From positions 908 through 64,907 of the forward strand of contig JALOOO010000007.1 in assembly GCA_025454375.1 (NCBI GenBank): DNA of 64,000 nucleotides. The letters run 5' to 3'. This document shows positions 10,172 through 29,369 of this stretch, piece by piece. Made by a program: the position numbers and the translations under genes. The stretch is from Leptolyngbya sp. Prado105. Its GTDB lineage: Bacteria; Cyanobacteriota; Cyanobacteriia; Leptolyngbyales; Leptolyngbyaceae. How positions within the stretch are numbered: the first letter of the stretch is position 1; each line of letters opens with the position of its first letter. The notes under the pieces are model-generated. The model saw only the letters and a program-made list of their open reading frames with translations, ran no database searches and had not been told where the DNA came from.

Positions 10172-11539
10172 ATGTGTGCTGCAACTTATCGTGAACGAGC
10201 CGATGCAGGAATGGCAACATTACAGATGTTTTACAATCCTGCAACCGGATTATGGAACACTACAGGCTGGTGGAATTCTGCGAATGTGTTAGAAACCACG
10301 ATCGATTACTGCATCTTCACCGATTCGTTAACCTACCGCACAAACATATTCAACACATTTGAGAAAAACAAACGTAATAATTTCTTAAATGAGTTTTACG
10401 ATGATCAGGGATGGTGGGCACTGGCTTGGATAAAAGCGTTTGACCTGACTGGAGAATCCCGCTATCTCAATGCTGCTCGAATTATTTTCACCGATATGAC
10501 CAAAGGCTGGGATAACACCTGCGGTGGCGGAATCTGGTGGAATAAAGAGCATAAATATAAAAATGCAATCTCAAATGAATTATTTCTCTCGATCGCGGCT
10601 CGATTGTTTCTCCGCACTCGCGATCAGCGCTACCTCGATTGGGCACAGCGAACCTGGACTTGGTTTAGTAAAACCGGAATGATCAATGCAAGTAACTTGA
10701 TCAACGATGGTCTGAACAATCAATGTAAAAACAATGGACAACCGACTTGGACCTACAATCAAGGCGTAATTTTAGGTGGATTGATTGATCTCCATCAATG
10801 TACAAACAATCGAGCATTGCTCAAAACCGCAGAAGCGATCGCCGATGCCGCGCTCAAAAATCTTGCCCCTAAGGGGGTGCTAAAAGAACCTTGCGAACCC
10901 AACTGCGGCTTAGATGGTCCTCAATTCAAAGGCATCTTTATGCGCAATCTTTCTGACCTATACCGAACAATCAATAAGCTGAGCTATCGCGACTTTATCC
11001 TTCGCAACGCAGATTCGATCTGGAACGTTAGCCGCAATCCAAAGAACCAATTTGGCTTATGCTGGGCGCAGAAATTTGATCAAGCTGATGCGGCTCGGCA
11101 AAGTGCTGCAATGGATACTTTGAATGCCGCGATCGTTGCCAGTCGAACCCCGATCATTTTGCAAGCTGAGACTGGAACCTTGCACAATCTCGTGCTAGAA
11201 GCCGTCTATACAGGTTACGAAGCGGCAGGGTATGTCGCAAACTGGAATCGAGACGGACAATGGGTTGATTTTGAGTTCACATTGCCGACTACTGGACGAT
11301 TCGATTTGATCTTCCGCTATGCCGCTGCTGCTGGGAATGCAACGCGATTTATCTTTGTCAATGGGAGAGCGATCGTCAATGCTCAAATCTTCCCCGGAAC
11401 CGGAGACTGGACGGTTTGGAACACCGTAACAATTCCAAATGTTTCACTGAAAGCCGGAAACAATACGGTTTCTATCATTTTTAATCAATCAAAAGGAAGT
11501 CGAAACTGGCTCAATCTCGATCAGCTTATAATTCGTTGA
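10172..11539 (+). CDS. Glycoside hydrolase family 76 + C-terminal CBM35/CBM6-like module
   Basis: FYDDQGWW catalytic DD motif, CGGGIWW, YKNAISNEL, WTYNQG, FKGIFMRNL; C-terminal QAETG...GYVANWN...NTV...LNLDQL. Confidence 0.88.
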   Translation: MCAATYRERADAGMATLQMFYNPATGLWNTTGWWNSANVLETTIDYCIFTDSLTYRTNIFNTFEKNKRNNFLNEFYDDQGWWALAWIKAFDLTGESRYLNAARIIFTDMTKGWDNTCGGGIWWNKEHKYKNAISNELFLSIAARLFLRTRDQRYLDWAQRTWTWFSKTGMINASNLINDGLNNQCKNNGQPTWTYNQGVILGGLIDLHQCTNNRALLKTAEAIADAALKNLAPKGVLKEPCEPNCGLDGPQFKGIFMRNLSDLYRTINKLSYRDFILRNADSIWNVSRNPKNQFGLCWAQKFDQADAARQSAAMDTLNAAIVASRTPIILQAETGTLHNLVLEAVYTGYEAAGYVANWNRDGQWVDFEFTLPTTGRFDLIFRYAAAAGNATRFIFVNGRAIVNAQIFPGTGDWTVWNTVTIPNVSLKAGNNTVSIIFNQSKGSRNWLNLDQLIIR

Positions 11540-11560: not shown

Positions 11561-12445
11561 ATGAACTCTCGATCCAGGCGCTCTCACCGAGTCCACATCA
11601 ACATCGAAAATGGGCGGTTTCAAATCCAAGGCATGAATGCTTGGTACTCCTACTGGCGTGATCCCTACCATTTGGTTTTAACGCTACCTTGGGCTGGATT
11701 TGTTGGATTTATCTTCACGGTCTACCTGGGCATTAACCTGGGATTTGCGCTCCTCTACATGGTAGGAGGAGACACTGTTGCAAATGCAACCCCCGGAGCG
11801 TTTTGGGATTACTTCTTTTTCAGTGTGCAAACCTTTGCTTCTATTGGCTACGGAGCCATGTATCCCAAAACCTTCTACTCGAATACGCTCGTCACGATCG
11901 AAGCGATGGGCGGACTCTTAGCGATCGCCATTCTCGCCGGACTTGCCTTTGCTCGATTTTCTCGCTCAACTGCACGAGTCGTCTTCAGTGATGTCGCAAT
12001 CATCGCCCCGCATGAAGGTCTGCCAACTTTGAGCTTTCGTGCAGCAAACGAACGCCGCAACCTGATCTTAGAAGCCCAGATGCGCGTCTACTTGCTGCGC
12101 GATGAAATCACTTCAGAAGGACAATACATACGCCGAATTCACGATCTCGCACTCTTACGCAGTCGAACTCCTGGATTTGCCCTCTCCTGGCTCGTCCTGC
12201 ATCCAATCGATCAGTCTAGCCCACTCTATGGCATGACTGCTGAAGAAATGACCGAGACAAACTGCGTAATTCAAGTCAACCTGAGCGGAGTCGATGAAAC
12301 CGTGATCCAAGTGCTACACGATCGACATAGCTATGTGCCCCAAGACATTTTGTGGAATCATCGATTCATCAACATCATTCACAAAACCCCGGACGGACAT
12401 CGCTATATTGATTACAGGCACTTTCACGACTCGGAACCCATTTGA
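11561..12445 (+). CDS. Inward-rectifier-type potassium channel (KirBac-like)
   Basis: DPYHLVLTLPW slide helix, FFFSVQTFASIGYG pore, FARFSR, and cytoplasmic Kir domain. Confidence 0.92.
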   Translation: MNSRSRRSHRVHINIENGRFQIQGMNAWYSYWRDPYHLVLTLPWAGFVGFIFTVYLGINLGFALLYMVGGDTVANATPGAFWDYFFFSVQTFASIGYGAMYPKTFYSNTLVTIEAMGGLLAIAILAGLAFARFSRSTARVVFSDVAIIAPHEGLPTLSFRAANERRNLILEAQMRVYLLRDEITSEGQYIRRIHDLALLRSRTPGFALSWLVLHPIDQSSPLYGMTAEEMTETNCVIQVNLSGVDETVIQVLHDRHSYVPQDILWNHRFINIIHKTPDGHRYIDYRHFHDSEPI

Positions 12446-12662: not shown

Positions 12663-13553
12663 TTAAGTGCGGGAAGTACGATCGATAATCTCGCTCCGCA
12701 CCTGCTTAAAGGCAAAATCTCCCAACACTTTATGTGCGGTCGTCGTCGGATGAATGCCATCCCAAAACAAGAATCGATCGCAGTTCGTTGCCGTTTCCAA
12801 GCAAGCATTCGTCACATTCGTAAACCCATACCGATTGGGATCATTGATTGCCGTCCGATAGATTCCAAACACATCTAGCTCAGCAATGGCTAAACCTGGT
12901 TTTCTGAACTTCTCGATCGTGGTTTTCAGCGCTTGATTGTAGGCAATCGCAAACTCTGTCAAACTCTGAGCGTTCTGCTTGCCCCGAGTTGCAGGCAGAT
13001 TTCCTAGATCGGGTAAATTTGCGACCAGTAAGCGTTTTGCACCTTGGTCAAGCAGCAATTGCAGCGACTGAGTAAGATTCTGAATCGAAGCATTGGGCGT
13101 TTCTGTACTGAAGAGATAATCATTTGAACCTGCCCAAACTACAAACAGCGATTGCGGTTGAATCTGCGGCTGATTTTTTAGAAACGTTTCGACCTGCGCC
13201 AAAACGCCCGGAACTTGATTCATACCCACTTCGCCTGTCGTAGCTCCACCCCAAGCAAAATTCTTCACTTGATCGCCGCTCAGATTTAACTTTGCCGCTA
13301 GTTCTTCTACCCAAACTTTTCCATTCGAGTGTCTGCCCTGAAAGTAAGGCGGAGCAGGAACAGCCCCCCCTGTCGCCCGAAATACATTGCCGACATCAGA
13401 CAAGCTATCGCCAAAGACATAGAGCCGATCGATCGGCTGAACGAGTTGTTGAGGTTCAGGAAGCATTGCAGGGAGCGTAAACGCGATCGCGGACAAGCAA
13501 AACGCAGCGACAAAGAGTATAACTCTCCGCGAGCGCAAAAAGGACAATCTCAT
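12663..13553 (-). CDS. SGNH/GDSL hydrolase (lipase/esterase), exported
   Basis: FGDSLSD, GSND, C-terminal DGIHP; N-terminal signal-like segment. Confidence 0.92.
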   Translation of the reverse strand: MRLSFLRSRRVILFVAAFCLSAIAFTLPAMLPEPQQLVQPIDRLYVFGDSLSDVGNVFRATGGAVPAPPYFQGRHSNGKVWVEELAAKLNLSGDQVKNFAWGGATTGEVGMNQVPGVLAQVETFLKNQPQIQPQSLFVVWAGSNDYLFSTETPNASIQNLTQSLQLLLDQGAKRLLVANLPDLGNLPATRGKQNAQSLTEFAIAYNQALKTTIEKFRKPGLAIAELDVFGIYRTAINDPNRYGFTNVTNACLETATNCDRFLFWDGIHPTTTAHKVLGDFAFKQVRSEIIDRTSRT

Positions 13554-13738
13554 CTTCAGAAATTTGGAACACTAGAGACAAACTTAGCAAATTTGCTCAA
13601 AAATCTACTTGCACGATAGAGAGAAATCGCTCCAAATTAATCTCTCTTTGGACTAATGCAATACCCACTCGCATTTACATAAAGTGTACAAGAACAATAT
13701 GGGTCAGTAATCGGGGGTGTAGCGATGCAACACCCCTT

Positions 13739-13771
13739 TTATATTTTATAAAGCTTATATTTTATAAAGCT
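13739..13771. repeat. 16/17-bp tandem duplication TTATATTTT(T)ATAAAGC just after the NYN stop
   Basis: Copies at 13739-13754 and 13755-13771; preceded by hairpin GGGGTGT-AGCGATGCA-ACACCCC (13714-13736). Confidence 0.8.
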
Positions 13772-13774
13772 GAA

Positions 13775-14392
13775 TTAGGGAGCAATGCGAACGCGATCGC
13801 TCATATCACTGCGCTGAATCAAAGGCTGAATCTTTGCAAGATCCACATAGCGATCGGCAATATTGACTAAACTATCGCTCGTCATCGACTGCAAACTTAC
13901 GACCTCAACCTGCACCCCCCGATAAGAAACGGTATTCACCACATAGGTTAAATCCCCGTCTCCACTCAGTAAAACCATCGTGTTGCAGTATTGGGACAAT
14001 TCCAGCATATCGACTGCAATCTCGACATCTAGATTGGCATGTTTTGAGCCATCTGAATGCTGAATCAATTCCTTTGTGACCACTCGATACCCGTGGCGAC
14101 GCATCCATAAGAGAAATCCCTGCTGTTTCTCATTATTCGGATCGACCCCAGTGTAAAAGTAAGCGCGTAAAAGCCTCCGTCCCCCTGCAAGATACTCCAG
14201 CAATTTTGAGTAATCAATCTCTAACCCAAGCTGCATCGCAGCATAGAACAAATTCGACCCATCAATAAAAATTCCAACACGATCGCTCTTTAGCAAATTT
14301 TTTGGATCAGACGGCGCGAATCCGTCGTCTGAATCGTAAACATCTTCGGACTTGCCTGAAGATGTCCGACGGTTACGGGGAACAAATTGCAT
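13775..14392 (-). CDS. LabA/NYN domain protein (paralogue A, acidic motifs intact)
   Basis: IFIDGSNL, KHANLDVEIAVD, LSGDGDL, GVQVEVV, ADRYVDL. Confidence 0.92.
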   Translation of the reverse strand: MQFVPRNRRTSSGKSEDVYDSDDGFAPSDPKNLLKSDRVGIFIDGSNLFYAAMQLGLEIDYSKLLEYLAGGRRLLRAYFYTGVDPNNEKQQGFLLWMRRHGYRVVTKELIQHSDGSKHANLDVEIAVDMLELSQYCNTMVLLSGDGDLTYVVNTVSYRGVQVEVVSLQSMTSDSLVNIADRYVDLAKIQPLIQRSDMSDRVRIAP

Positions 14393-14627
14393 AGAAATTT
14401 ATGGCGAATTGTATAAAGCCAGCCTGAATTCCGGCTGCTTTCACAGTCAATCTGGCGCGCGAGCGTAAAGTATTCTGGCTTCGACTAGAGCCAATCTTAT
14501 AAATCGGGAGAAATACTCTATGCTGGGTGCTTACCGGAAGAATTCAAGACTATTTTTAGGTTTTACCGCGCTTTTCTCAATCACAGGGGATTGTGAACGG
14601 ATGGAACACGATTCGTTACTTTTATTC

Positions 14628-14743
14628 TTTTTAATTCAAAAATAAACTAACTTTAGACGGTCAGGTTTTTTGCAAATTTCTTTATTTTTTAATTCAAAAA
14701 TAAACTAACTTTAGACGGTCAGGTTTTTTGCAAATTTCTTTAT
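14628..14743. repeat. Perfect 58-bp direct tandem duplication in the AT-rich intergenic region
   Basis: TTTTTAATTCAAAAATAAACTAACTTTAGACGGTCAGGTTTTTTGCAAATTTCTTTAT at 14628-14685 and 14686-14743; TATAAT at 14741-14746. Confidence 0.95.
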
Positions 14744-14831
14744 AATGTTTTAAGATTCATATATTATTGATAAAAAAGGCTTCAATCCTATAACAGAGCC
14801 TCCAAACCTAGTTGCTCGGAGGTAAATTTAG

Positions 14832-14999
14832 ATGGAATATGGATGCTCTTTGGCAGAGGCGGCGAGACGGCTTCAGGTTGACCAAGCAACAGTTTTATTC
14901 GCGATGCAGAAAGGTGCGATTGCAACGCAGCAGAGAAATGGGCGCGTCATTGTGGCTCAAGCTGCGATCGCCGAATATCAGGCACGATCTCGTCGGTAG
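14832..14999 (+). CDS. 55-aa excisionase/HTH_17-like (MerR-superfamily winged HTH) protein
   Basis: Below the track cutoff. MEYGCSLAEAARRLQVDQATVLFAMQKGAIATQQRNGRVIVAQAAIAEYQARSRR; GGAGGT SD at 14818-14823, 8 nt before ATG. Pattern SL.EAARRL.V...TV......G.I......GR matches HTH_17. Confidence 0.8.
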   Translation: MEYGCSLAEAARRLQVDQATVLFAMQKGAIATQQRNGRVIVAQAAIAEYQARSRR

Positions 15000-15262
15000 C
15001 AGATTCAGACATTACAAGTCATCAGGCAAATTTCTTAAGCTTTCTAACAAACGGTAGCGAAATTTGCGAGGAAAAGTAATGCTCTGAATACCAATACCAT
15101 TGGGTTTTCAAATCCGTTCCATAATAAAACCCAATCTTTCTATCCCCCAAGTGCCCCCGGCATTTTTTTGGGAAAACCCTTTTTATATATGAACAATTCC
15201 CCTGCATGTGAAACGATATCGCGTTTTGCATGGGGAGAAATTTATCCGAGCTTTCGCGATTC

Positions 15263-15889
15263 ATGATCCAGTTAGTACGAGAACCGGATGGTATAGAGCC
15301 ATCACTTCCCCAAGTCCCAGAGGATTCATCCGAACAACTCCCGCTACTCTTTCCCGAAGAATTCGATGAAACAGATGCCCCTGTACATTTGCATCGAGGT
15401 CGATTGATGATTTTTATCGATGGTGCAAATTTATTTTATGCAGCGTCACAGATGGGAGTTGAAATTGATTATGCAAAATTATTGAACTACCTCCAGCAGC
15501 ACAGTACTTTAATTTATGCGTTTTTCTATACGGGCGTTGACCCTGGAAATCTCCGTCAACATGCGTTTTTAACCTGGATGCGGCGCAATGGTTATCGAGT
15601 CGTGACGAAAGATGTGGTGTTAAATGCGTCGGGGTCAAAGCGGGTGAGCAGCATGAATGTTGAGATTGCGGTGGATATGATGCGATTCGCTCAAGATTGT
15701 GACACTGAGATTTTGATTAGCGGCGATGGCGATCTCGCTTATGCGGTGAATGCCGTTTCCTATTTAGGAACGAAGGTAGAAGTAATTTCTTTACGATCGA
15801 TGACCCATGAACGCTTAGTGACGATTGCGGATAATTTTATTGATATTCTTAGTATTCGCGATGAGATTCAGAAATCTCCAAGATCTTAG
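15263..15889 (+). CDS. LabA/NYN domain protein (paralogue B, central Asp replaced by Asn)
   Basis: IFIDGANL, SSMNVEIAVD, ISGDGDL; acidic N-terminal extension. Start may be 15230. Confidence 0.9.
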   Translation: MIQLVREPDGIEPSLPQVPEDSSEQLPLLFPEEFDETDAPVHLHRGRLMIFIDGANLFYAASQMGVEIDYAKLLNYLQQHSTLIYAFFYTGVDPGNLRQHAFLTWMRRNGYRVVTKDVVLNASGSKRVSSMNVEIAVDMMRFAQDCDTEILISGDGDLAYAVNAVSYLGTKVEVISLRSMTHERLVTIADNFIDILSIRDEIQKSPRS

Positions 15890-17441
15890 CAAGCTGCGAT
15901 CGTAACAGTTGAAGTTGATAGTGTTTTGCAGTTTCAGAGGCAATGGGTTTAATTTCAAATTGCAAAATCGGTCTTGCGGCTTGTTCGTACTGTGAGATCG
16001 CGGCTAGATTCAGTTGGCTAAAATGCGTGAAATAGCTTTGAATCCGATCTTGACAGGTTTCTAATAATTCCTGTGGATTGGTTTTTCTAAGCGGCTGATC
16101 ATCGAATAGAAATGAAGCACTTTCTCGCATGATCGACGCGATCGTTCGACCCAATAGCAAGTCTAATGGGGATGAGTCGTCAGGCTGCTGTACTTGAATC
16201 AAGTCTTGCTTCATCGTTGGAAAGGTAATGAGAAGCTGATTTGGGCGAGGCTGGTCGAAGAATTCGCAGGCTTGATGCACCCATTTGATCAAGGCTTGCT
16301 GATAGTTGATCGCGCTTCGCTTAAAGTCGCCTGTCTCCCAGATCTTAAAAGAATTTGTTTGCAGTGCGAGACTGGCATCGATTTGGTATTGAGACAGCAA
16401 TCGATCGAGACTGAGCCAATCGCGAAATTCTTCCAAGCTCGATTCAAAGCCTTTCTGAACCAGCCCTTGCGCCTTTTGTTGAATTTGAAACCGTTGCTTG
16501 AGGGTTTCTGTTTCAGACAGAATTTCTGATTCGAGATCCCTAATTTTTGGTTGAAGTGCGTGTTGAATTTGGCGTGCGATCGACTGAATTCGGGCAGTCT
16601 GAGTCACTCGTGAGGCTTGAAAATGCGCTGCGATCGTTTGCAATGCAGATTCAAAAATGGGCAGCCCCGATTCTTTTGCTGCCGAACTATCTCCTTTCAA
16701 ACGAGCGCGAAGTGCGGGAAGCGCATCAACGCGGTAGAGATTGCTCACTCCTGACGGTAAGTGAGATCGAAAGCTTTCTGCAACGAATCTGAGGCGGTGA
16801 TAGACCCGAAGTTGATCTTCAGATTCGAGCAGATTGAGAAAATTAACGACAAAAACGACCGTTGTAATCCCGCGATCGAGTAACCAATCTCGCAGTTGTT
16901 CTCGCTCTCCAAGCGTCATCAATTTCCGTCCATCTAGAACTTGAATGATCACATCCGCGCCGAGCAATTGATTTTTGACGAGCGCGTCTTGCGCGTCTCG
17001 ATCGTCGGTTCCTGGTAAATCAACGAATTCAACGCCCGTTTTGAGCAAAGGGTGCGGGCAAAAGACTTCAACCGATTTCACATCTTCGCGCATTCGTCGA
17101 TCGTGGTCTAAAATCGCGAATTGTTTGAGCAAATCAGTTCCAGGTTTGCGGAGGATGAGATCGTCTTGAAATTGAATCGCGGTTTCCAGCGTATCGCCGT
17201 ATTGAACTCGAATCGCTGCGCCCGTCGTCGGGATAATGTCGATCGGTAAGGCGCGTTCGCCAAGCATTGCATTTAATAATGTAGATTTGCCGTAATTGAA
17301 TGGGGCAAAAATCGCAACGCGCAACTGGTCAGAATCGCGTTGAGAGATGGATTCGAGGTCTTGCCGAATGGGGTGATTGGGAGGTAATTCGAGGGTGCCG
17401 ATTGCAGATTTGATGATTTCGATTTGTGATTGTATTGACAT
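15849..17441 (-). CDS. Dynamin-like GTPase, second and shorter member of the pair
   Basis: AIFAPFNYGKSTLLNAM, PTTG, DLPGTDD, VVNFLN, DALPALRAR; helical C-terminus. Start placed at MSIQSQIE (track start 17504). Confidence 0.88.
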   Translation of the reverse strand: MSIQSQIEIIKSAIGTLELPPNHPIRQDLESISQRDSDQLRVAIFAPFNYGKSTLLNAMLGERALPIDIIPTTGAAIRVQYGDTLETAIQFQDDLILRKPGTDLLKQFAILDHDRRMREDVKSVEVFCPHPLLKTGVEFVDLPGTDDRDAQDALVKNQLLGADVIIQVLDGRKLMTLGEREQLRDWLLDRGITTVVFVVNFLNLLESEDQLRVYHRLRFVAESFRSHLPSGVSNLYRVDALPALRARLKGDSSAAKESGLPIFESALQTIAAHFQASRVTQTARIQSIARQIQHALQPKIRDLESEILSETETLKQRFQIQQKAQGLVQKGFESSLEEFRDWLSLDRLLSQYQIDASLALQTNSFKIWETGDFKRSAINYQQALIKWVHQACEFFDQPRPNQLLITFPTMKQDLIQVQQPDDSSPLDLLLGRTIASIMRESASFLFDDQPLRKTNPQELLETCQDRIQSYFTHFSQLNLAAISQYEQAARPILQFEIKPIASETAKHYQLQLLRSQLAKILEISESHREY

Positions 17442-17463
17442 ATTTTTTACCGAAAACCCTGGG

Positions 17464-17487
17464 AGAGACGCGATGAATTGCGTCTCT
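17464..17487. repeat. REP/SDR-like palindrome AGAGACGC-GATGAATT-GCGTCTCT between the two dynamin genes
   Basis: 8-bp perfect arms; closely related to the element at 60719-60758. Confidence 0.7.
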
Positions 17488-17521
17488 GCGATCAACCATT
17501 GCACCCCTCGATCAACCCCGA

Positions 17522-19573
17522 TTATCCCAATAGCGATTGATAAATCGATTCCACTCGATCGTAGTGTTGGTCAAGATTTGATCGCCCCTTGATCAATCGA
17601 TCGACTTCGACATCGCGATCGATCTGTCTTGATTCTTTTTGTCGTACTAAATTATCCAATTCGGACTTTCTCGATCGAATATCATCATCAATCCGTTGAA
17701 TAATCCCGTTCTCATAGGTCTCAAAACATTCCTGAACCGAATTGTAAATGGGCTGCCATTGTTCTTGCGCAATACTTGGCAAATGCTGCATCAATTCCTT
17801 TTTCACCGCTTTAGCAAACCGTTGTCGCGCATCATCTGCTTGAAAGGCTCCGATCGCCAGACCTGCTAGCAACACCCCAAACGGACCCAAAATCGACCCA
17901 AACAAAAACGCAACGCCAACTGTTGCAACTAGATTCAGAGTCACCGTGCCAAAGTCAAATCCACTGATCGCAAGAGCCGCCCCTGCCAAATTTCCACGCG
18001 ACAAGGAGAACAATCCCATCGCCCACTTTGCCCAACTCGGTGCAGTCTCGTCTTTCTCACTAGATTTTAGCCGCGCCTGAATGCCCGTCATCTTCTCACT
18101 AATCTGTGCTGTCACCTCACTATAGGTAGCACCATGCTTTTCAGCACTGCAAGACAGTTCAGAAAATGCCGCTTTCAATTCTTGATCGGCGGTCAATGCC
18201 CAGGCCGCAAATTTATCACTCACATACTGCTGAAATCCCTGTTTTGATTTGGCATTAAAGCATTCTCGTTTCGACTCACTAAAGAAATCCAAAAACTGAA
18301 GTTCATTCGGCTGATATTTAAGAAAATCCTGCTCAAACGTCGCTTCCATGCCCATCAAGTAACTCCGAAACGAATCTGCGATCGCGCGAGCTTTCTTGTC
18401 TTCCAACTGCCGAATTTCACTGCGAAAGCGATCGCGAATCTCAGAAAGCTTCTGAAACTCAGGCTCAACGGATTCAATTCGTTGCTTCAATTCATTGAGA
18501 TCTTGATCTAGCAAGGGAATCCGCAGGTCGATCGCTTCTCGGACGCGACGTTGAGTTTGCCACACCAAAGCTCTCGCTTTTCTCAATTCAGAAACCGCTC
18601 GCTCCTGCGTCAAAAACACATTTAAGGCAGCTAAAAACTCAGGAAATCCTGTCCCATTTAACGCTGCATTTTGATCTTTGATGCGTCGTCGCAGTGCCTG
18701 GATCGCTGAAATCTCGAATACTCGTTCATCATAGAGATCGTGACCCTCAACTTGACAGTACTCCGCCAAGTTTGATCGAAAGACTCGTCTCAATTTGGAC
18801 TCTGCTTCTGCTAACTCCTCCGGATCATCTGGATCAATCAAACTCTCTTTCACTTGATCCCAGGCATTCACCAAAAAGAATACAGACAACCCGCGCTCTT
18901 TGATGTAATTCTCCAAATATCGACGTTCTGCAAGCGTGCAAGGCTGAGTAGATCGCATCACAAACAAAATCGCATGACAGTTGTGAATGTAGCTCAGCGA
19001 GAGTTCATTCCGCGCTTCCGTATCATTCAAACCAGGACTGTCAACGATTTCTACTCCTTTCTCAAGCAATGCCAAGGGATACTCAACAACCGCGTGACTG
19101 ATATCTGGAAAGGCTTGCTGATTATTTTGCTCCAGTGCTTTGGCTTCTTCAGGTGCGATCGTGTATTGCGTTTTGAAGGTTCTAAAATCAACCTCTAGCG
19201 GCGACTTCCCATCATTAAAATGAATCGTGACGCGCTTCTCAGCGCCATATTTCAGCACCGTCAACAGCGCTGTGCAAGGATTCACATCACTAGGCAGCAG
19301 ATTCTCACCTAGCAACGCATTGAGAAACGTACTTTTCCCACGTTTCATATCTCCCAGCACGAGGAGACGAAACACTCCCGCTTTCAGGGCTTCCCCAGCA
19401 TTCTTCAAATCCTCAATCTCGCACTCTAGCCCTAACTGACCGGAAGCTCCTTCACTCTCAGTCTCGACTTGATTTAAAGCGGTTGCGATCGCATGGATTT
19501 CATTTGCCATCGCAGCCCGACTCTGCACGACTCGATCGAGGTCGCTGAGAAAATTCATTGTTTCAATTCGCAT
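17522..19573 (-). CDS. Bacterial dynamin-like protein, BDLP1-type
   Basis: GDMKRGKST, SDVNPCT, DSPGLND, LVNAWD, PSWAKWAMGL, hydrophobic paddle LNLVATVGVAFLFGSILGPFG; resembles recalled Nostoc punctiforme BDLP1. Confidence 0.95.
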   Translation of the reverse strand: MRIETMNFLSDLDRVVQSRAAMANEIHAIATALNQVETESEGASGQLGLECEIEDLKNAGEALKAGVFRLLVLGDMKRGKSTFLNALLGENLLPSDVNPCTALLTVLKYGAEKRVTIHFNDGKSPLEVDFRTFKTQYTIAPEEAKALEQNNQQAFPDISHAVVEYPLALLEKGVEIVDSPGLNDTEARNELSLSYIHNCHAILFVMRSTQPCTLAERRYLENYIKERGLSVFFLVNAWDQVKESLIDPDDPEELAEAESKLRRVFRSNLAEYCQVEGHDLYDERVFEISAIQALRRRIKDQNAALNGTGFPEFLAALNVFLTQERAVSELRKARALVWQTQRRVREAIDLRIPLLDQDLNELKQRIESVEPEFQKLSEIRDRFRSEIRQLEDKKARAIADSFRSYLMGMEATFEQDFLKYQPNELQFLDFFSESKRECFNAKSKQGFQQYVSDKFAAWALTADQELKAAFSELSCSAEKHGATYSEVTAQISEKMTGIQARLKSSEKDETAPSWAKWAMGLFSLSRGNLAGAALAISGFDFGTVTLNLVATVGVAFLFGSILGPFGVLLAGLAIGAFQADDARQRFAKAVKKELMQHLPSIAQEQWQPIYNSVQECFETYENGIIQRIDDDIRSRKSELDNLVRQKESRQIDRDVEVDRLIKGRSNLDQHYDRVESIYQSLLG

Positions 19574-19942: not shown

Positions 19943-20674
19943 TTAAATTGATCGACGAATCTCCGATCGCAATTTTTCTAATTCTGGATCAACAGGCGGA
20001 CTCGCAGGCAACGAACCCTGATTCATTTGCCCTTTCATCGCAGCGAGTTCGGCATCAATCTCATCCCCTTGACCCAACGACTCAAACCGCTTTTCTAATG
20101 TATCGTTGCTCAATTCTGCCATCGCTTCCGATCGCGCTTCGAGTTGCAGCACCTTATCTTCCATACGCTCAAACGCATTCATTGCGCTGCCTGTTCTGAC
20201 TCGATTTAGCATTTCATTCAATTGCTCAGACGCTTTTGCCGATCGCGCCCGTGCAATATACATATCTTTTTTCGTTTTCGCCTCAGAAATCTTGCCCTCA
20301 AGCTTCATCATGTTCTGCTTTAGTTGAGTGACGATCGCGCCTTGTTGACTTAACTGCGCTTCCATGGCACTCGCCGTTTCTACATAACTTTTTCGCCGCG
20401 CTAGGGCTTCGCGTGCCAAATTCTCATCGCCTTTTTGTAGCGCTAACTGCGCCCGACGATACCATTCCTCTGAATTGGTACGGGCTTGGGACGCTTGACG
20501 TTCGGTGCGTTTTTGAGTCGCGATCGCTTGCGCGACGGCTTGGCGAAGCTGAATCAAATCATTCTGCATATCCAAAACGGTCTGCTCCAGAATTTTCTCT
20601 GGATCTTCCATTTTGCCAACCAGGTCATTTAGATTTGCACGAATCACGCGCCAAATTCGGTCAAACAGTCCCAT
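19943..20674 (-). CDS. PspA/IM30 (Vipp1-like, ESCRT-III superfamily) protein
   Basis: MGLFDRIWRVIRANLN...EDPEKILEQ...KISEAKTKK...AFERMEDKV; short C-terminal helix VDPELEKLR; GGAGAGG SD before ATG 20674. Confidence 0.95.
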   Translation of the reverse strand: MGLFDRIWRVIRANLNDLVGKMEDPEKILEQTVLDMQNDLIQLRQAVAQAIATQKRTERQASQARTNSEEWYRRAQLALQKGDENLAREALARRKSYVETASAMEAQLSQQGAIVTQLKQNMMKLEGKISEAKTKKDMYIARARSAKASEQLNEMLNRVRTGSAMNAFERMEDKVLQLEARSEAMAELSNDTLEKRFESLGQGDEIDAELAAMKGQMNQGSLPASPPVDPELEKLRSEIRRSI

Positions 20675-20760
20675 AGCAGCCTCTCCGCAGAATGGTGAAG
20701 GGGAATACCCTAGCTCTAGCTCACTCAATCCTACCGCAGGTTACTGAACCGTGAGTCTTC

Positions 20761-27869: not shown

Positions 27870-29369
27870 ATGAGCAATTATTGGGCGATCGCCGTTGGAA
27901 TCAATCACTACCAGTTCCTGCAACCTCTTCATTTTGCCCAGACGGATGCCCAATTTCTCTGTGAAAGCTTGGTGAGTAATGCTGGTTTCTTACCTGAACA
28001 ATGTGTATTGATGACGGATACGTCCCCGGATTTTGCGGATCATTCGAGCGATCCCACCGCCGAGAATCTGCGCTATTGGACGACTGTATTGCAAGACAAA
28101 CTCCAGCCAGAAGATGGATTGTGGTATTTCTTCAGTGGGTATGGAGTCTGTGTCGATGGCGAAGACTACTTACTCCCGATCGATGCCGATATTTCTCGAA
28201 TTCAAGACAGGGGTTTTTCAGTGCGATCGCTGTTTCAAACCTTGAAAACGTTGCCGACGCAAAAGATTTTTGTCTTACTGGATATCAATCGATCGGCTTC
28301 AGTCTCTCATGAGAAAGTTGGAACTCAAACTGTCGCAATCGCTCGTAAAGCTGGAATTCCAACGATGTTGTCCTGTCGTCCGGAGCAGTTTTCGCATGAA
28401 GCCCCTGCCTTAAATCATGGACTTTTTACCCAGGCATTGCTAGAAGGATTGCGATCGCATCAATGCTCAACCTTGGCAACGTTAGAAGATTTCTTAAGAG
28501 ATAGATTGCCAGAGCTATGTGATCACCACGATCTCCCGATTCAAGATCCGATCCTAGTCGTATCTGATCCAGAGCAGCTTTACCGAGTGATCATGCCTGT
28601 GAATTGGGCTGAGACTGAATCTTGGGTTCCGGCACCGACAAATCCATTTTCTGTAGAAGGCGACCTATATCTGAATGCGTTAGAGTCTGAACCTGAATCT
28701 CGTTACGAATTTCAGCCGACGGTCATGGGTGCGACTACGACCGAGATTCCCGACAATCTGGTGCTGAATCCAGCCGAATATGACCCGATCGAATATCAAC
28801 CGACTGAATATGAACCCATCCAAGCCGATCTGACGCTGCCTGAAGACGCGGATCAACCTGCGCCAACGCCAACCATTTCGCCGATTCCCGAAGAGCCTGA
28901 CTTGCCGGATCAGATGTTTTGGGAGCGACTGCTGTTTGGGGGAAGTGCAGTGTTGCTTGTGCTGCTGCTAGGTGTGCTGTTCCGAAATTGGTCAGCATTT
29001 ATGGGGGGACAGCAGCAAACCGCGAATCAGAATCCTGCCACTCCAGAAGTTGCGGCATCACCTGCTGCTGCCATCGATTCTGCAAAGATCTTGAACGAAG
29101 CTCGGTCGTTTATCAAACCTACGCTAGCATCAGATGCAAATCGTGCGATTGAACGCGCTCGTGCGATTCCACCCAGTGATCCACTCTATGCTCAAGCGCA
29201 ACAAGACATCGATCGATGGAGCCGCAATATTTTAGAGATTGCACGTAAGCGGGCAGAACAGAAAGAGTTTCAACAAGCAATTTCAGCCGCCCAACTGGTT
29301 CCCAAAGATCGACCTCAAGTTTATGCTGAGGCACAGAAAGCGATCCAGCAGTGGCGCAAAGCTCGTTAG
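27870..29369 (+). CDS. Caspase-like (peptidase C14/p20) protein with substituted catalytic dyad, TM helix and helical C-terminal domain
   Basis: WAIAVGINHY..LQPLHFAQTDA; FSGYG (H->Y); LLDINRS (C->N); HGLFTQALLEGL; TM near LLFGGSAVLLVLLLGVLF. Confidence 0.88.
   Translation: MSNYWAIAVGINHYQFLQPLHFAQTDAQFLCESLVSNAGFLPEQCVLMTDTSPDFADHSSDPTAENLRYWTTVLQDKLQPEDGLWYFFSGYGVCVDGEDYLLPIDADISRIQDRGFSVRSLFQTLKTLPTQKIFVLLDINRSASVSHEKVGTQTVAIARKAGIPTMLSCRPEQFSHEAPALNHGLFTQALLEGLRSHQCSTLATLEDFLRDRLPELCDHHDLPIQDPILVVSDPEQLYRVIMPVNWAETESWVPAPTNPFSVEGDLYLNALESEPESRYEFQPTVMGATTTEIPDNLVLNPAEYDPIEYQPTEYEPIQADLTLPEDADQPAPTPTISPIPEEPDLPDQMFWERLLFGGSAVLLVLLLGVLFRNWSAFMGGQQQTANQNPATPEVAASPAAAIDSAKILNEARSFIKPTLASDANRAIERARAIPPSDPLYAQAQQDIDRWSRNILEIARKRAEQKEFQQAISAAQLVPKDRPQVYAEAQKAIQQWRKAR

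What the first reader, a model, noticed from the sequence alone, without database searches (positions are those of the whole stretch)
13775..15889. Divergent LabA/NYN paralogue pair, one apparently intact and one with Asp->Asn, enclosing an HTH gene and a tandem repeat
Seen: NYN-A (minus) has DGSN / NLDVE / SGDGD. NYN-B (plus) has DGAN / MNVE (AAT at 15656-15658) / SGDGD, plus a one-residue insertion and an acidic N-terminal extension. Between them lie the 58-bp duplication, the 55-aa HTH gene and a hairpin (TCCCCTGCA...TGCATGGGGA) just upstream of NYN-B. Established: NYN is a PIN-fold RNase family with conserved acidic metal ligands, and Synechococcus LabA modulates circadian output. Inference: a self-contained RNase / attenuated-RNase / regulator module, such as an enzyme-inhibitor heterodimer or a clock- or stress-linked RNA decay switch. 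I know no description of this arrangement.
Basis: partly seen in the sequence, partly recalled or inferred. Interest (0 to 1): 0.72.

Follow-up and report, generated by a model that had tools for sequence, protein, structure and literature searches.

The report
LabA-type RNase gene with Asp-to-Asn twin
A group of filamentous cyanobacteria (Leptolyngbyaceae) duplicated their LabA-type putative RNase gene and have kept, under strong selection, a second copy in which one of the three core catalytic aspartates is asparagine; it usually sits back-to-back with the normal copy, often with a tiny DNA-binding gene between them, which makes it a tidy but modest case of a probable "dead-enzyme" paralogue in a family whose biochemistry is still unknown.

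Summary
NYN-A (13775-14392, minus) and NYN-B (plus, true start 15263, end 15889) are PF01936 NYN proteins, 55% identical. A 55-aa Xis/BldC-like HTH gene, a perfect 58-bp tandem duplication and a hairpin lie between them.

NYN-B's Asn132 replaces the Asp equivalent to VPA0982 D92 and MARF1 D426, one of three universally conserved active-site Asp. The Asn and a one-residue insertion are fixed in all 28 NYN-B orthologues, all from Leptolyngbyaceae. The other active-site residues stay invariant and dN/dS is 0.05-0.24, so NYN-B is a maintained gene.

A shared MQLV N-terminus shows that NYN-B arose from NYN-A within this lineage, then diverged quickly.

The back-to-back A/B pair is ancestral: it occurs in 9 of the 17 loci examined and in 4 of 5 subclades, but it has been split at least twice. 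The HTH gene occurs in three subclades and is absent or decayed elsewhere. The 58-bp repeat is strain-specific. The hairpin is a covarying 5'-leader RNA structure of NYN-B.

Best reading: a cleavage-impaired, RNA-binding regulatory paralogue of a LabA-type nuclease. No toxin-antitoxin or defence signature was found, and activity and interaction remain untested. Loss of catalytic Asp recurs elsewhere in cyanobacterial LabA-likes. Verdict: a new variant of a known kind, of moderate interest.

The parts
13775..14392 (-). NYN-A: canonical single-domain LabA-like NYN protein, 205 aa, with all active-site residues intact (D in DGSN, D in NLDVE, AVD, SGDGD). It belongs to the type found throughout cyanobacteria.
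   Evidence: PF01936 E 2.1e-34. VPA0982/2QIP E 1.6e-15. 4298 homologues at E<=1e-10, including Gloeobacter, Gloeomargarita and Thermosynechococcus. dN/dS 0.07-0.2.
14393..14831 (.). Divergent promoter region shared by NYN-A and the HTH gene. Blocks are conserved even in the distant locus L028, for example CTTTATAAT..TTTAAGATT (a TATAAT at 14741-14746) and CAAGACT..GCTTT.
   Evidence: Alignments. Consensus promoter-like hits on the plus strand at 14739-14767 and on the minus strand at 14580-14552 (pattern matches only).
14628..14743 (.). Perfect 58-bp tandem duplication (2.0 copies) in the divergent promoter region. It is strain-specific. Its 3' boundary falls inside the conserved TATAAT block, and copy 2 keeps that block intact.
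   Evidence: Single copy in L019/L020. Repeat unitig at twice the flanking depth, plus a junction unitig, in the source run.
14799..14822 (+). CCUCC...GGAGG stem that could sequester the Shine-Dalgarno sequence (GGAGG, 8 nt before the ATG) of the HTH gene.
   Evidence: The sequence is identical in L019/L020 and largely changed in L028, so there is no covariation evidence. Weak.
14832..14999 (+). Small HTH gene (55 aa), a minimal MerR-like winged helix of the Xis/BldC type. It belongs to a very small family.
   Evidence: HTH_17 25.5 bits, below the gathering score of 27. Orthologues 52-84% identical upstream of NYN-B in L001, L002, L019-21, L026, L028 and L030. Only 15 representatives at E<=1e-3 among 1.84 billion proteins. 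AF2 pLDDT 86.5; TM 0.75-0.79 to Pukovnik Xis and BldC.
15099..15135 (+). Conserved stem-loop in the spacer between the HTH gene and NYN-B (AUUGGGUUUU / AAAACCCAAU, 10 bp).
   Evidence: I4. Conserved in sequence in 8 loci but essentially without compensatory change, so its status as a structure is open.
15198..15236 (+).
   Evidence: RNAalifold on 8 loci finds 5 pairs with compensatory changes. 91% of cells are paired, against 60% or less for slid controls; covariation score 0.36 against 0.17 or less; 0 of 500 shuffles reach it. The covariance model R1 hits only NYN-B leaders, in 10 loci, and hits nothing upstream of NYN-A or elsewhere in the window.
15263..15889 (+). NYN-B: lineage-specific LabA-like paralogue, 208 aa from the corrected start (the ORF opens at 15230). 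It has a disordered acidic N-terminal region carrying a conserved QLPLxFPEEFDETD motif, followed by a confident NYN fold.
   Evidence: PF01936 E 6.3e-28. Orthologues P0001-P0027 at 58-92% identity. AF2 pLDDT above 90 over most of residues 47-202, with residues 1-41 below 50. Foldseek TM 0.84 to 2QIP and about 0.7 to MARF1 NYN. dN/dS 0.05-0.24. N-terminal motif.
15638..15658 (+). Loop carrying the one-residue insertion (KRVSSM against KH-ANL), followed by Asn132 (AAT 15656-15658), which replaces the catalytic Asp.
   Evidence: The Asn codon is AAT in 16 loci and AAC in 1, never GAY. The position equals 2QIP D92, MARF1 D426 and B. fragilis NYN D118. The loop has lower model confidence (residue block 121-130, pLDDT 63).

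Best explanation
In an ancestor of a Leptolyngbyaceae lineage (Leptolyngbya, Plectolyngbya, Myxacorys), the cyanobacterial LabA-type NYN gene underwent a local inverted duplication.

One copy, NYN-A, stayed canonical. The other, NYN-B, diverged quickly. It acquired three changes:
- Asp->Asn at one of the three universally conserved active-site aspartates;
- a one-residue insertion in the adjacent loop;
- an acidic, disordered N-terminal region with its own conserved motif.

NYN-B has been held under strong purifying selection ever since.

Shown: the origin of NYN-B, the fixation of the Asn, the selection acting on it, the fold, and the synteny pattern.

Inferred: NYN-B is a cleavage-impaired NYN protein that still binds metal and RNA, a natural 'D->N trap'. 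It would act as a regulator rather than a bulk nuclease. The likeliest modes are competing with NYN-A for the same RNAs, or pairing with NYN-A.

The expression of NYN-B appears to be controlled separately. A structured 5' leader hairpin precedes it, and in most subclades a small Xis/BldC-like DNA-binding protein is encoded just upstream.

The 58-bp repeat is an incidental recent duplication in the shared promoter region.
For: Paralogy: the two proteins are 55% identical, E 5e-68.

The Asn and the insertion are fixed in 28 of 28 NYN-B orthologues, while other cyanobacterial LabA-likes have D or E there.

Position mapping: the alignment to 2QIP places NYN-A's D of NLDVE on SEQRES D95, which is D92 in the published numbering. 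The offsets of 78 and 23 to the other two Asp agree with D14/D92/D115, which correspond to MARF1 D358/D426/D452 (PMC11346440). The MARF1 D426A/D427A double mutant strongly loses RNase activity (PMC6294520).

The Asp is conserved in distant bacterial and archaeal relatives.

NYN-B D53, N56, E134, D138 and D155 are invariant; D157 is D in 27 and E in 1. dN/dS is 0.05-0.24, comparable to NYN-A. Asn is kept through a synonymous AAT/AAC change and never reverts to Asp.

Origin within the lineage: the N-terminal motif MQLVPR occurs only in NYN-A of this group and a few close relatives, and as M[IVT]QLV[RQ]E in NYN-B.

Rapid divergence after duplication: the NYN-B clade is monophyletic (84% bootstrap) on a long stem and never groups with the co-resident NYN-A.

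Synteny:
- The divergent pair occurs in the window, L019, L020, L005-7, L023, L028 and L029.
- HTH lies upstream of NYN-B in the window, L019-21, L001, L002, L026, L028 and L030.
- Genomes where the pair is split still carry NYN-A elsewhere: NIES-3755, Plectolyngbya WJT66 and Phormidium tanganyikae.

The leader hairpin shows covariation. NYN-B has the NYN fold and the HTH protein an Xis/BldC-like fold.
Against: - No biochemical data exist for any cyanobacterial LabA-like protein, so 'NYN-A active, NYN-B impaired' rests on homology alone.
- Asn can still ligate Mg2+ through its carbonyl oxygen. The strict conservation of every other active-site residue fits retained catalysis as well as it fits metal-dependent RNA binding.
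- The pair is split in 8 of the 17 loci examined, and the HTH gene is absent or decayed in 8. Neither co-location nor the HTH protein is therefore required.
- The same Asp is Leu in six other LabA-like proteins and Asn in three outside the NYN-B clade. The first Asp of SGDGD is Asn in three more. If any of these is the only copy in its genome, the family's conserved function may not need catalysis, and the A/B contrast loses meaning.
- No transcript data could be found.
- A-B interaction could not be modelled with the tools available.
Confidence: 0.5

Rival explanations
1. NYN-B is still an active ribonuclease that has been sub- or neo-functionalised. The Asn, the loop insertion and the new N-terminus would change metal preference, rate or substrate choice rather than abolish cleavage. 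On this view A and B are two enzymes with different targets.
For: All remaining active-site residues (D53, N56, E134, D138, D155, D157) are invariant or nearly so across the clade, even though synonymous sites are saturated. Pseudoenzymes usually let such residues drift. A cyanobacteria-specific invariant Glu lies two residues after the Asn and could partly compensate. The pair is often split, which suggests independent function.
Against: The position is one of only three Asp conserved from bacteria to MARF1. Mutating it together with its neighbour in MARF1 strongly reduces activity. From my own knowledge, D->N changes at PIN-like metal ligands are the standard way to make nuclease-dead proteins, for example Regnase-1 D141N; I did not test this here.
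Confidence: 0.25
2. There is no module. The adjacency is only the scar of an inverted tandem duplication, and the HTH gene is an unrelated small neighbour. A, B and HTH would then function independently.
For: The pair is split at least twice (the NIES-3755 subclade and L022), and NYN-B is retained in new neighbourhoods. HTH is missing in Myxacorys, L022, L023 and L029 and is decayed in L003 and L004. A more distant HTH relative, P0235, has no NYN neighbour.
Against: The divergent pair persists in 4 of 5 NYN-B subclades at 58-65% protein identity and with saturated dS, while the flanking genes differ. When the pair split in the NIES-3755 group, HTH moved with NYN-B. The HTH family is tiny, and its closest members are all next to NYN-B.
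Confidence: 0.2
3. The HTH gene and NYN-B form a VapBC-like type II toxin-antitoxin pair, with a small DNA-binding antitoxin upstream of a PIN-like toxin.
For: The gene order resembles such a pair: a small DNA-binding protein followed by a PIN-fold protein.
Against: A 263-nt spacer with its own conserved leader separates the two genes, with no overlap or translational coupling. The putative toxin lacks a core catalytic Asp. The 'antitoxin' has been lost or has decayed in 8 of 17 loci while NYN-B stays intact. Inheritance is vertical and syntenic within one family. PADLOC returns only a generic NYN domain hit.
Confidence: 0.03
4. NYN-B is a decaying duplicate, that is, a pseudogene in the making.
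For: It has lost a catalytic residue and sits on a long stem branch.
Against: The ORF is intact in all 17 loci. dN/dS is 0.05-0.24. The clade spans 58-92% identity with the motifs fixed.
Confidence: 0.01

Closest known systems
LabA and LalA of Synechococcus elongatus PCC 7942 (Synechocystis Slr0755 is the LabA orthologue; Slr1870 and Slr0650 are NYN proteins, Slr1870 with an added OST-HTH domain)
   Same: They belong to the same Pfam family (PF01936, LabA-like NYN.COG1432). NYN-A has the single-domain architecture and the phylum-wide distribution expected of the LabA type. A cyanobacterium carrying two LabA-family paralogues is already known (PMC12232666, PMC5499597).
   Different: LalA-type paralogues differ in domain architecture, not in a catalytic-site substitution. 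NYN-B is a single-domain copy restricted to Leptolyngbyaceae, with D->N, and is adjacent and divergent to its parent gene. No kai genes occur among the neighbours examined.
VPA0982 of Vibrio parahaemolyticus (PDB 2QIP)
   Same: It is the closest solved structure: E 1.6e-15 for NYN-A by sequence, 7e-27 for the family profile, and Foldseek TM 0.84 for the NYN-B model. It shares the D14/D92/D115 triad with NYN-A.
   Different: Its function is unknown. It has no N-terminal extension. NYN-B has Asn at the D92 position.
MARF1 NYN domain and the Bacteroides fragilis CRISPR-associated NYN ribonuclease
   Same: They share the fold and the active-site triad. Both are experimentally shown Mn2+/Mg2+-dependent endoribonucleases, and mutants of their catalytic Asp lose activity (PMC6294520, PMC11346440).
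   Different: They are only distantly related (12-15% identity to MARF1) and sit in other contexts (P-bodies; a type III CRISPR locus). There are no cas genes here, and PADLOC gives only a generic domain match.
Utp24/Utp23 and similar PIN-domain nuclease/pseudo-nuclease paralogue pairs
   Same: In these pairs one paralogue keeps the acidic active site, while the other has lost catalytic residues but is retained as an RNA-binding factor (table in PMC5499597). This is how I think the A/B pair works.
   Different: They are eukaryotic and belong to the VapC-like group rather than the NYN group. Utp23 has lost several residues, whereas NYN-B has lost exactly one and keeps the rest invariant. No evidence exists that A and B act in one complex.
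BldC (Streptomyces) and phage Xis proteins (for the HTH gene)
   Same: They are also roughly 55-70-aa stand-alone MerR-like winged-helix DNA-binding domains. The best structural matches have TM 0.75-0.79.
   Different: Foldseek E-values are weak (0.08-0.1) for so small a protein, and the Pfam HTH_17 score is just under threshold. There is no integrase or mobile-element context. DNA binding is untested.

Membership tests
NYN domain, PF01936 (LabA-like, NYN.COG1432) | Pfam HMM score above the gathering threshold | tested here: met
   NYN-A 119.5 bits and NYN-B 98.5 bits, against a gathering score of 24.2.
NYN domain, PF01936 (LabA-like, NYN.COG1432) | PIN-like alpha/beta fold superimposable on VPA0982 and MARF1 NYN | tested here: met
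   The NYN-B AF2 model has pLDDT above 90 over the domain. Foldseek gives 2QIP TM 0.84 and MARF1 NYN TM 0.69-0.74. NYN-A was tested by sequence only.
NYN domain, PF01936 (LabA-like, NYN.COG1432) | The three universally conserved active-site Asp (VPA0982 D14/D92/D115, equal to MARF1 D358/D426/D452) | tested here: not met
   NYN-A has all three. NYN-B has D53 and D155 but Asn132 at the D92/D426 position, in 28 of 28 orthologues. NYN-B is a family member by homology but not by active site.
NYN domain, PF01936 (LabA-like, NYN.COG1432) | Divalent-metal-dependent endoribonuclease activity | not testable with these tools
   This needs recombinant protein assays. No activity data for any cyanobacterial LabA-like protein were found in the literature searched.
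LabA orthologous group (S. elongatus LabA / Synechocystis Slr0755) | Sequence orthology to S. elongatus LabA | not tested
   The reference sequence could not be obtained, and the Taniguchi 2007 paper is not held. NYN-A is called 'LabA-like' only through source annotations.
LabA orthologous group (S. elongatus LabA / Synechocystis Slr0755) | Single NYN domain without OST-HTH, present across the phylum | tested here: met
   This holds for NYN-A: it has one Pfam domain, and close homologues occur from Gloeobacter to Nostocales. NYN-B is confined to Leptolyngbyaceae.
LabA orthologous group (S. elongatus LabA / Synechocystis Slr0755) | Role in circadian output (KaiC negative feedback) | not testable with these tools
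   This is a genetic phenotype. The neighbouring genes examined are unrelated to the clock (lipase, K+ channel, dynamin-like proteins, IM30).
Type II toxin-antitoxin (VapBC-like) | Tightly coupled bicistronic operon of an antitoxin and a catalytically intact PIN toxin, always found together | tested here: not met
   There is a 263-nt spacer with its own leader. The putative toxin lacks a core Asp. HTH is absent or decayed in 8 of 17 loci. No TA or defence model is matched.
Enzyme / pseudoenzyme paralogue pair (works-like comparison) | A paralogue with a lost catalytic residue kept under purifying selection, co-occurring with the intact paralogue | tested here: met
   dN/dS is 0.05-0.24 and Asn is fixed. 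NYN-A is adjacent in 9 loci and elsewhere in the genome in 3 named genomes. The remaining loci are fragments and could not be checked.
Enzyme / pseudoenzyme paralogue pair (works-like comparison) | Physical or functional interaction of the two paralogues | not testable with these tools
   No multimer prediction or experimental data were available.
Xis/BldC-type minimal MerR-like HTH (for the 55-aa gene) | HTH_17 signature and a winged-helix fold | tested here: inconclusive
   Pfam gives 25.5 bits, below the gathering score of 27, although the relative P0235 carries PF12728. The AF2 model has pLDDT 86.5, and its TM is 0.75-0.79 to Pukovnik Xis and BldC, but Foldseek E is only 0.08-0.1.

The most novel reading that the evidence does not exclude
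NYN-B is a natural 'substrate-trapping' pseudo-nuclease. It would bind the same RNAs as the canonical LabA-type nuclease NYN-A, or bind NYN-A itself, and so protect or redirect those RNAs. Its own mRNA leader hairpin would be a target, and the BldC-like HTH protein would set its transcription. Together these would form an autoregulated RNA-decay switch, and the system would give the first biochemical handle on what LabA-family clock-output proteins actually do.
Probability: 0.2. Interest if true: 0.65.

Novelty: new variant of a known kind. Interest (0 to 1): 0.4.

Why it matters
LabA-family NYN proteins modulate circadian output and global gene expression in cyanobacteria. Deleting labA is even used to boost transgene expression (PMC11127020). 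Yet no one has shown what these proteins do biochemically.

This locus offers a naturally occurring, selectively maintained pair: a canonical copy and a copy with Asp->Asn at a core catalytic position, in the same genome. Comparing A, B and B(N132D) in vitro would be a ready-made experiment. It would show whether nuclease activity exists and whether it matters in this family. The conserved leader hairpin is also a candidate RNA ligand.

The significance is limited in four ways:
- the clade is narrow (Leptolyngbyaceae);
- predicted inactive NYN members are already catalogued;
- similar substitutions recur elsewhere in the family;
- nothing here yet ties the pair to the clock.

Tried and rejected
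- Rfam scan of 13400-16000 at E<=1: only two sub-threshold chance hits, NrrF at 24 bits and RsmV at 13.6 bits. No known RNA family covers the spacer.
- NCBIfam: no specific model for any of the three proteins.
- Word-indexed homologue search with the HTH protein: only 3 proteins found. The exhaustive profile search had to be used instead.
- RNA-seq: only one DNA wetland-metagenome run holds the window. No RNA run was found for L001. Operon structure and transcription start sites therefore remain unknown.
- Taniguchi 2007 (the labA paper) is not held, and the PNAS 2024 supplement is not held. Orthology of NYN-A to S. elongatus LabA could not be tested.
- Extending the leader hairpin to Myxacorys, L022, L023, L028 and L029: model R1 finds nothing there and MAFFT/RNAalifold gives no consensus. 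Single-sequence folds do place hairpins at the same relative position, but they are no more stable than shuffled sequences. Homology of those hairpins is not established.
- Upstream stem 15099-15135 and the CCUCC/GGAGG stem at the HTH Shine-Dalgarno sequence: both are conserved in sequence but show no covariation, so I do not claim them as structures.
- The first bootstrap script timed out. It was redone with a faster distance method. The tree is NJ on 160 columns, so the basal placement of NYN-B is treated as a long-branch effect and not as evidence of antiquity. The shared MQLV N-terminus argues for a duplication within the lineage.
- Toxin-antitoxin, defence-system and pseudogene readings were considered and rejected; see the rival explanations.


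Full report
**1. What is in the sequence**

The region holds the following features.
- NYN-A lies at 13775-14392 on the minus strand: 205 aa, PF01936 E 2.1e-34.
- On the plus strand an ORF spans 15230-15889: PF01936 E 6.3e-28.
- Between them lies a 55-aa ORF at 14832-14999 that scores 25.5 bits against HTH_17, just under the gathering score of 27.
- The two NYN proteins are 55% identical over 175 residues (E 5e-68). They differ by a single one-residue gap just before the motif NLDVE in A and MNVE in B.
- A perfect 58-bp x 2.0 tandem repeat lies at 14628-14743.
- The region of NYN-B ahead of its NYN domain has 11 acidic and 2 basic residues in 46. NYN-A has 7 and 6 in 37.

One correction concerns the start of NYN-B. 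Almost all full-length orthologues are 206-218 aa and begin M[ITVL]Q, most often MIQLV, MTQLV or MVQL. The closest relative has an in-frame stop where the window has ATG 15230. The real start is therefore ATG 15263, giving 208 aa, and the hairpin lies in the 5' leader.

**2. The Asn is at a core catalytic position and is fixed**

The only close solved structure is VPA0982 (2QIP): E 1.6e-15 for NYN-A and 7e-27 for a family profile.

In that alignment three correspondences hold.
- The D of NYN-A's IDGSN aligns with SEQRES residue 17.
- The D of NLDVE aligns with residue 95.
- The first D of SGDGD aligns with residue 118.

The spacings of 78 and 23 match the published active-site triad D14/D92/D115 of VPA0982. 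That triad corresponds to MARF1 D358/D426/D452 and to B. fragilis NYN D13/D118/D143 (PMC11346440).

NYN-B's Asn132 (AAT, 15656-15658) therefore replaces the equivalent of D92 and D426. In MARF1, the D426A/D427A double mutant loses most RNase activity (PMC6294520). The Asp is also conserved in distant bacterial and archaeal relatives.

An AlphaFold2 model of NYN-B is confident over the NYN domain and disordered over residues 1-41. It matches 2QIP at TM 0.84 and MARF1 NYN at about 0.7.

Among 236 aligned sequences (231 cyanobacterial LabA-like proteins, counting the window's own two, plus 5 distant outgroups), all 28 NYN-B-type sequences carry the Asn and the one-residue insertion. D53, N56, E134, D138 and D155 are invariant in them, and D157 is D in 27 and E in 1. 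The Asn codon is AAT in 16 loci and AAC in one, never GAY.

Pairwise dN/dS for NYN-B is 0.05-0.24, the same range as NYN-A (0.07-0.2). Synonymous sites are saturated between subclades. NYN-B is therefore a functional, constrained gene.

**3. Origin**

Every named carrier of NYN-B belongs to the Leptolyngbyaceae: Leptolyngbya spp., Plectolyngbya, 'Phormidium tanganyikae' and Myxacorys.

In a bootstrapped NJ tree the NYN-B clade is monophyletic in 84% of replicates. The figure rises to 96% when one metagenomic sequence that also has Asn is included. The clade sits on a long stem outside all other cyanobacterial LabA-likes and never groups with the co-resident NYN-A.

I read that placement as acceleration after duplication, not as evidence of antiquity. 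The N-terminal motif MQLVPR is found only in the NYN-A orthologues of this same lineage and a few near relatives. NYN-B starts with the matching M[IVT]QLV[RQ]E.

The divergent, adjacent arrangement fits a local inverted duplication.

**4. Synteny**

I examined 17 NYN-B loci: the window and 16 fetched loci. L019 and L020 are near-identical. They fall into four groups.
- A<- HTH-> B->: the window, L019, L020 and L028. L028 belongs to a distant subclade (65% identity), and its 61-aa HTH protein is 64% identical to the window's. An unexamined 11,441-bp contig probably belongs here too, because it is listed as the longest contig for P0004, P0123 and P0232 alike.
- A<- B-> without HTH: three Myxacorys genomes, L023 and L029.
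- HTH-> B-> without NYN-A nearby: L001, L002, L021 (NIES-3755), L030 and L026, the last with a divergent HTH.
- B alone, or with an HTH relic: L003, L004 and L022.

The genomes in which the pair is split still encode NYN-A elsewhere. In NIES-3755, for example, NYN-A is LEP3755_07710 and NYN-B is LEP3755_00470.

The divergent pair is thus ancestral, being present in 4 of 5 subclades, but it is not obligatory. The HTH gene is old and travels with NYN-B, but it is dispensable.

**5. The HTH gene and the non-coding elements**

The HTH family is tiny. An exhaustive profile search of 1.84 billion representative proteins finds 15 at E<=1e-3. A more distant member has no NYN neighbour.

The AF2 model of the HTH protein (pLDDT 86.5) is a minimal winged helix. 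Its best matches are mycobacteriophage Pukovnik Xis, Streptomyces BldC and the SoxR DNA-binding domain, at TM 0.73-0.79 but with weak E-values.

The promoter-like block upstream of the HTH gene (CTTTATAAT..TTTAAGATT) is conserved even in L028.

The 58-bp duplication is absent from the closest relatives, whose NYN-B is 92% identical. It is nevertheless real in the reads: the repeat unitig has double depth and a separate unitig spans the junction. Its 3' boundary lies inside the conserved TATAAT block, and copy 2 keeps that block intact. It is a recent strain-level event.

The leader hairpin has good support.
- Across 8 loci, 5 pairs show compensatory changes, and many G-U pairs are specific to the plus strand.
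- 91% of cells are paired, against 60% or less when the partners are slid.
- No shuffle out of 500 reaches the observed covariation score.
- A covariance model finds the hairpin only in NYN-B leaders of the window and NIES-3755 superclade, in 10 loci. It finds nothing upstream of NYN-A or elsewhere in the 64-kb window.

Other subclades have hairpins at the same relative position. Their homology could not be shown.

**6. Mechanism**

The duplication, the fixation of Asn at a catalytic position and the purifying selection are shown. The rest is inferred.

NYN-B has lost exactly one metal-ligand carboxylate and keeps every other active-site residue. This is the pattern of laboratory D->N 'nuclease-dead but substrate-binding' mutants of PIN-like enzymes (my own knowledge, not tested here).

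I therefore think NYN-B most likely binds metal and RNA but cleaves poorly. It would act as a regulator of the RNAs handled by NYN-A, or of NYN-A itself. Its own expression would be set through the structured leader and, where present, the Xis/BldC-like DNA-binding protein.

The main rival is that NYN-B remains an active enzyme with altered properties. The invariance of the remaining acidic residues fits that reading equally well.

A second rival is that the three genes are functionally independent and their adjacency is historical.

The toxin-antitoxin reading fails on spacing, on the active site, on loss of the 'antitoxin' and on database matches. The pseudogene reading fails on selection.

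**7. What lowers the significance**

- Matelska et al. 2017 already record that the LabA-like NYN cluster contains members with 1-5 acidic residues, predicted both active and inactive (PMC5499597).
- In my own alignment the same Asp is Leu in six sequences that group with the Leptolyngbyaceae NYN-A sequences (the P0189 group, a stand-alone gene next to rpsD). It is Asn in Gloeocapsa PCC 73106, in one related sequence and in one metagenomic sequence, and Glu in a small Fischerella/Chlorogloeopsis group.
- Three other sequences have SGNGD.
- Whether those variants are the only copy in their genomes could not be tested. If they are, catalysis may be dispensable for the family's core role.
- No paper found describes RNase activity of any cyanobacterial LabA-like protein or this paired arrangement.

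**8. Verdict**

NYN-B is a conserved, lineage-specific Asp->Asn subfamily of LabA-like proteins, born by inverted duplication. An associated mini-HTH gene and a covarying leader hairpin accompany it.

It is a new variant within a known family, of moderate interest (0.4). It would be considerably more interesting (about 0.65) if NYN-B proves to be a trapping partner or antagonist of the canonical LabA-type nuclease.

Noticed in passing
window 15849-15889, with 15849-17504(-), 17522-19573(-) and 19943-20728(-): The 3' end of NYN-B overlaps convergently, by 41 bp, the 3' end of the first of two tandem bacterial dynamin-like genes (Dynamin_N; the second also has Dynamin-like_hel_bact at E 3e-152). 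A PspA/IM30 gene follows, which together suggests a membrane-remodelling cluster. The same overlap and cluster are present in L019/L020.
   Followed up: partly
window 13714-13771: Just downstream of the NYN-A stop codon lie two features. One is a GC stem (GGGGTGT..ACACCCC) followed on the plus strand by a T-rich run. The other is a perfect 16-bp x 2.1 tandem repeat (TTATATTTTATAAAGC). Together they may be a bidirectional terminator between NYN-A and the GDSL lipase gene.
   Followed up: no
P0189, P0204, P0206, P0213, P0221, P0227 (L025:469-1077); P0073 and P0116 (L024:6001-6633); P0048 (L027:1109-1756); P0171, P0177, P0184: Catalytic Asp has been lost independently in other cyanobacterial LabA-like proteins. 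There is D->L at the same position together with SGDGE (the gene lies next to rpsD), D->N in Gloeocapsa sp. PCC 73106, and SGNGD variants. All are stand-alone genes in the loci seen. Whether each is the sole copy in its genome is unknown.
   Followed up: partly
L029:3790-4389 (-): In this one metagenomic locus the NYN-A copy reads SGTGD instead of SGDGD. Its close relative L023 has SGDGD. This could be a real strain variant, in which case both copies there lack a catalytic Asp, or it could be a sequencing error.
   Followed up: no
L003:3450-3968, L004:5500-6000, L026:5622-5780: The HTH gene upstream of NYN-B looks frameshifted or decayed in L003 and L004. In L026 it is intact but has a scrambled middle, which suggests compensating frameshifts or assembly error. 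In L026 the C-terminus of NYN-B (P0066) is also aberrant.
   Followed up: partly
window 15251-15265 and the equivalent positions in 8 loci (A6/A8): The 12 nt immediately before the NYN-B start codon (CGCGATTC before ATG, usually preceded by GAA) are invariant across the Leptolyngbya subclade, although no Shine-Dalgarno sequence is evident. The 3' arm of the leader hairpin (GCAUGGGGAGAAAUUUA) resembles the Shine-Dalgarno region of the HTH gene (GCUCGGAGGUAAAUUUA; repeat D3).
   Followed up: no
window 15140-15170: An insertion of about 30 nt, shared only with L019/L020, contains a short GC stem (GUGCC/GGCAU). In the window alone a U7 run follows it, giving a terminator-like element between the HTH gene and NYN-B. 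The simple scan did not report it.
   Followed up: no
window 11561-12445(+), 10172-11539(+), 27870-29369(+): The surrounding genes include a prokaryotic inward-rectifier-type K+ channel (IRK_C, E 4e-30), a GH76 glycosidase with CBM35/CBM6, and a caspase-domain (Peptidase_C14) protein. The block esterase, GH76, Kir channel is syntenic with L019/L020 and L022.
   Followed up: no
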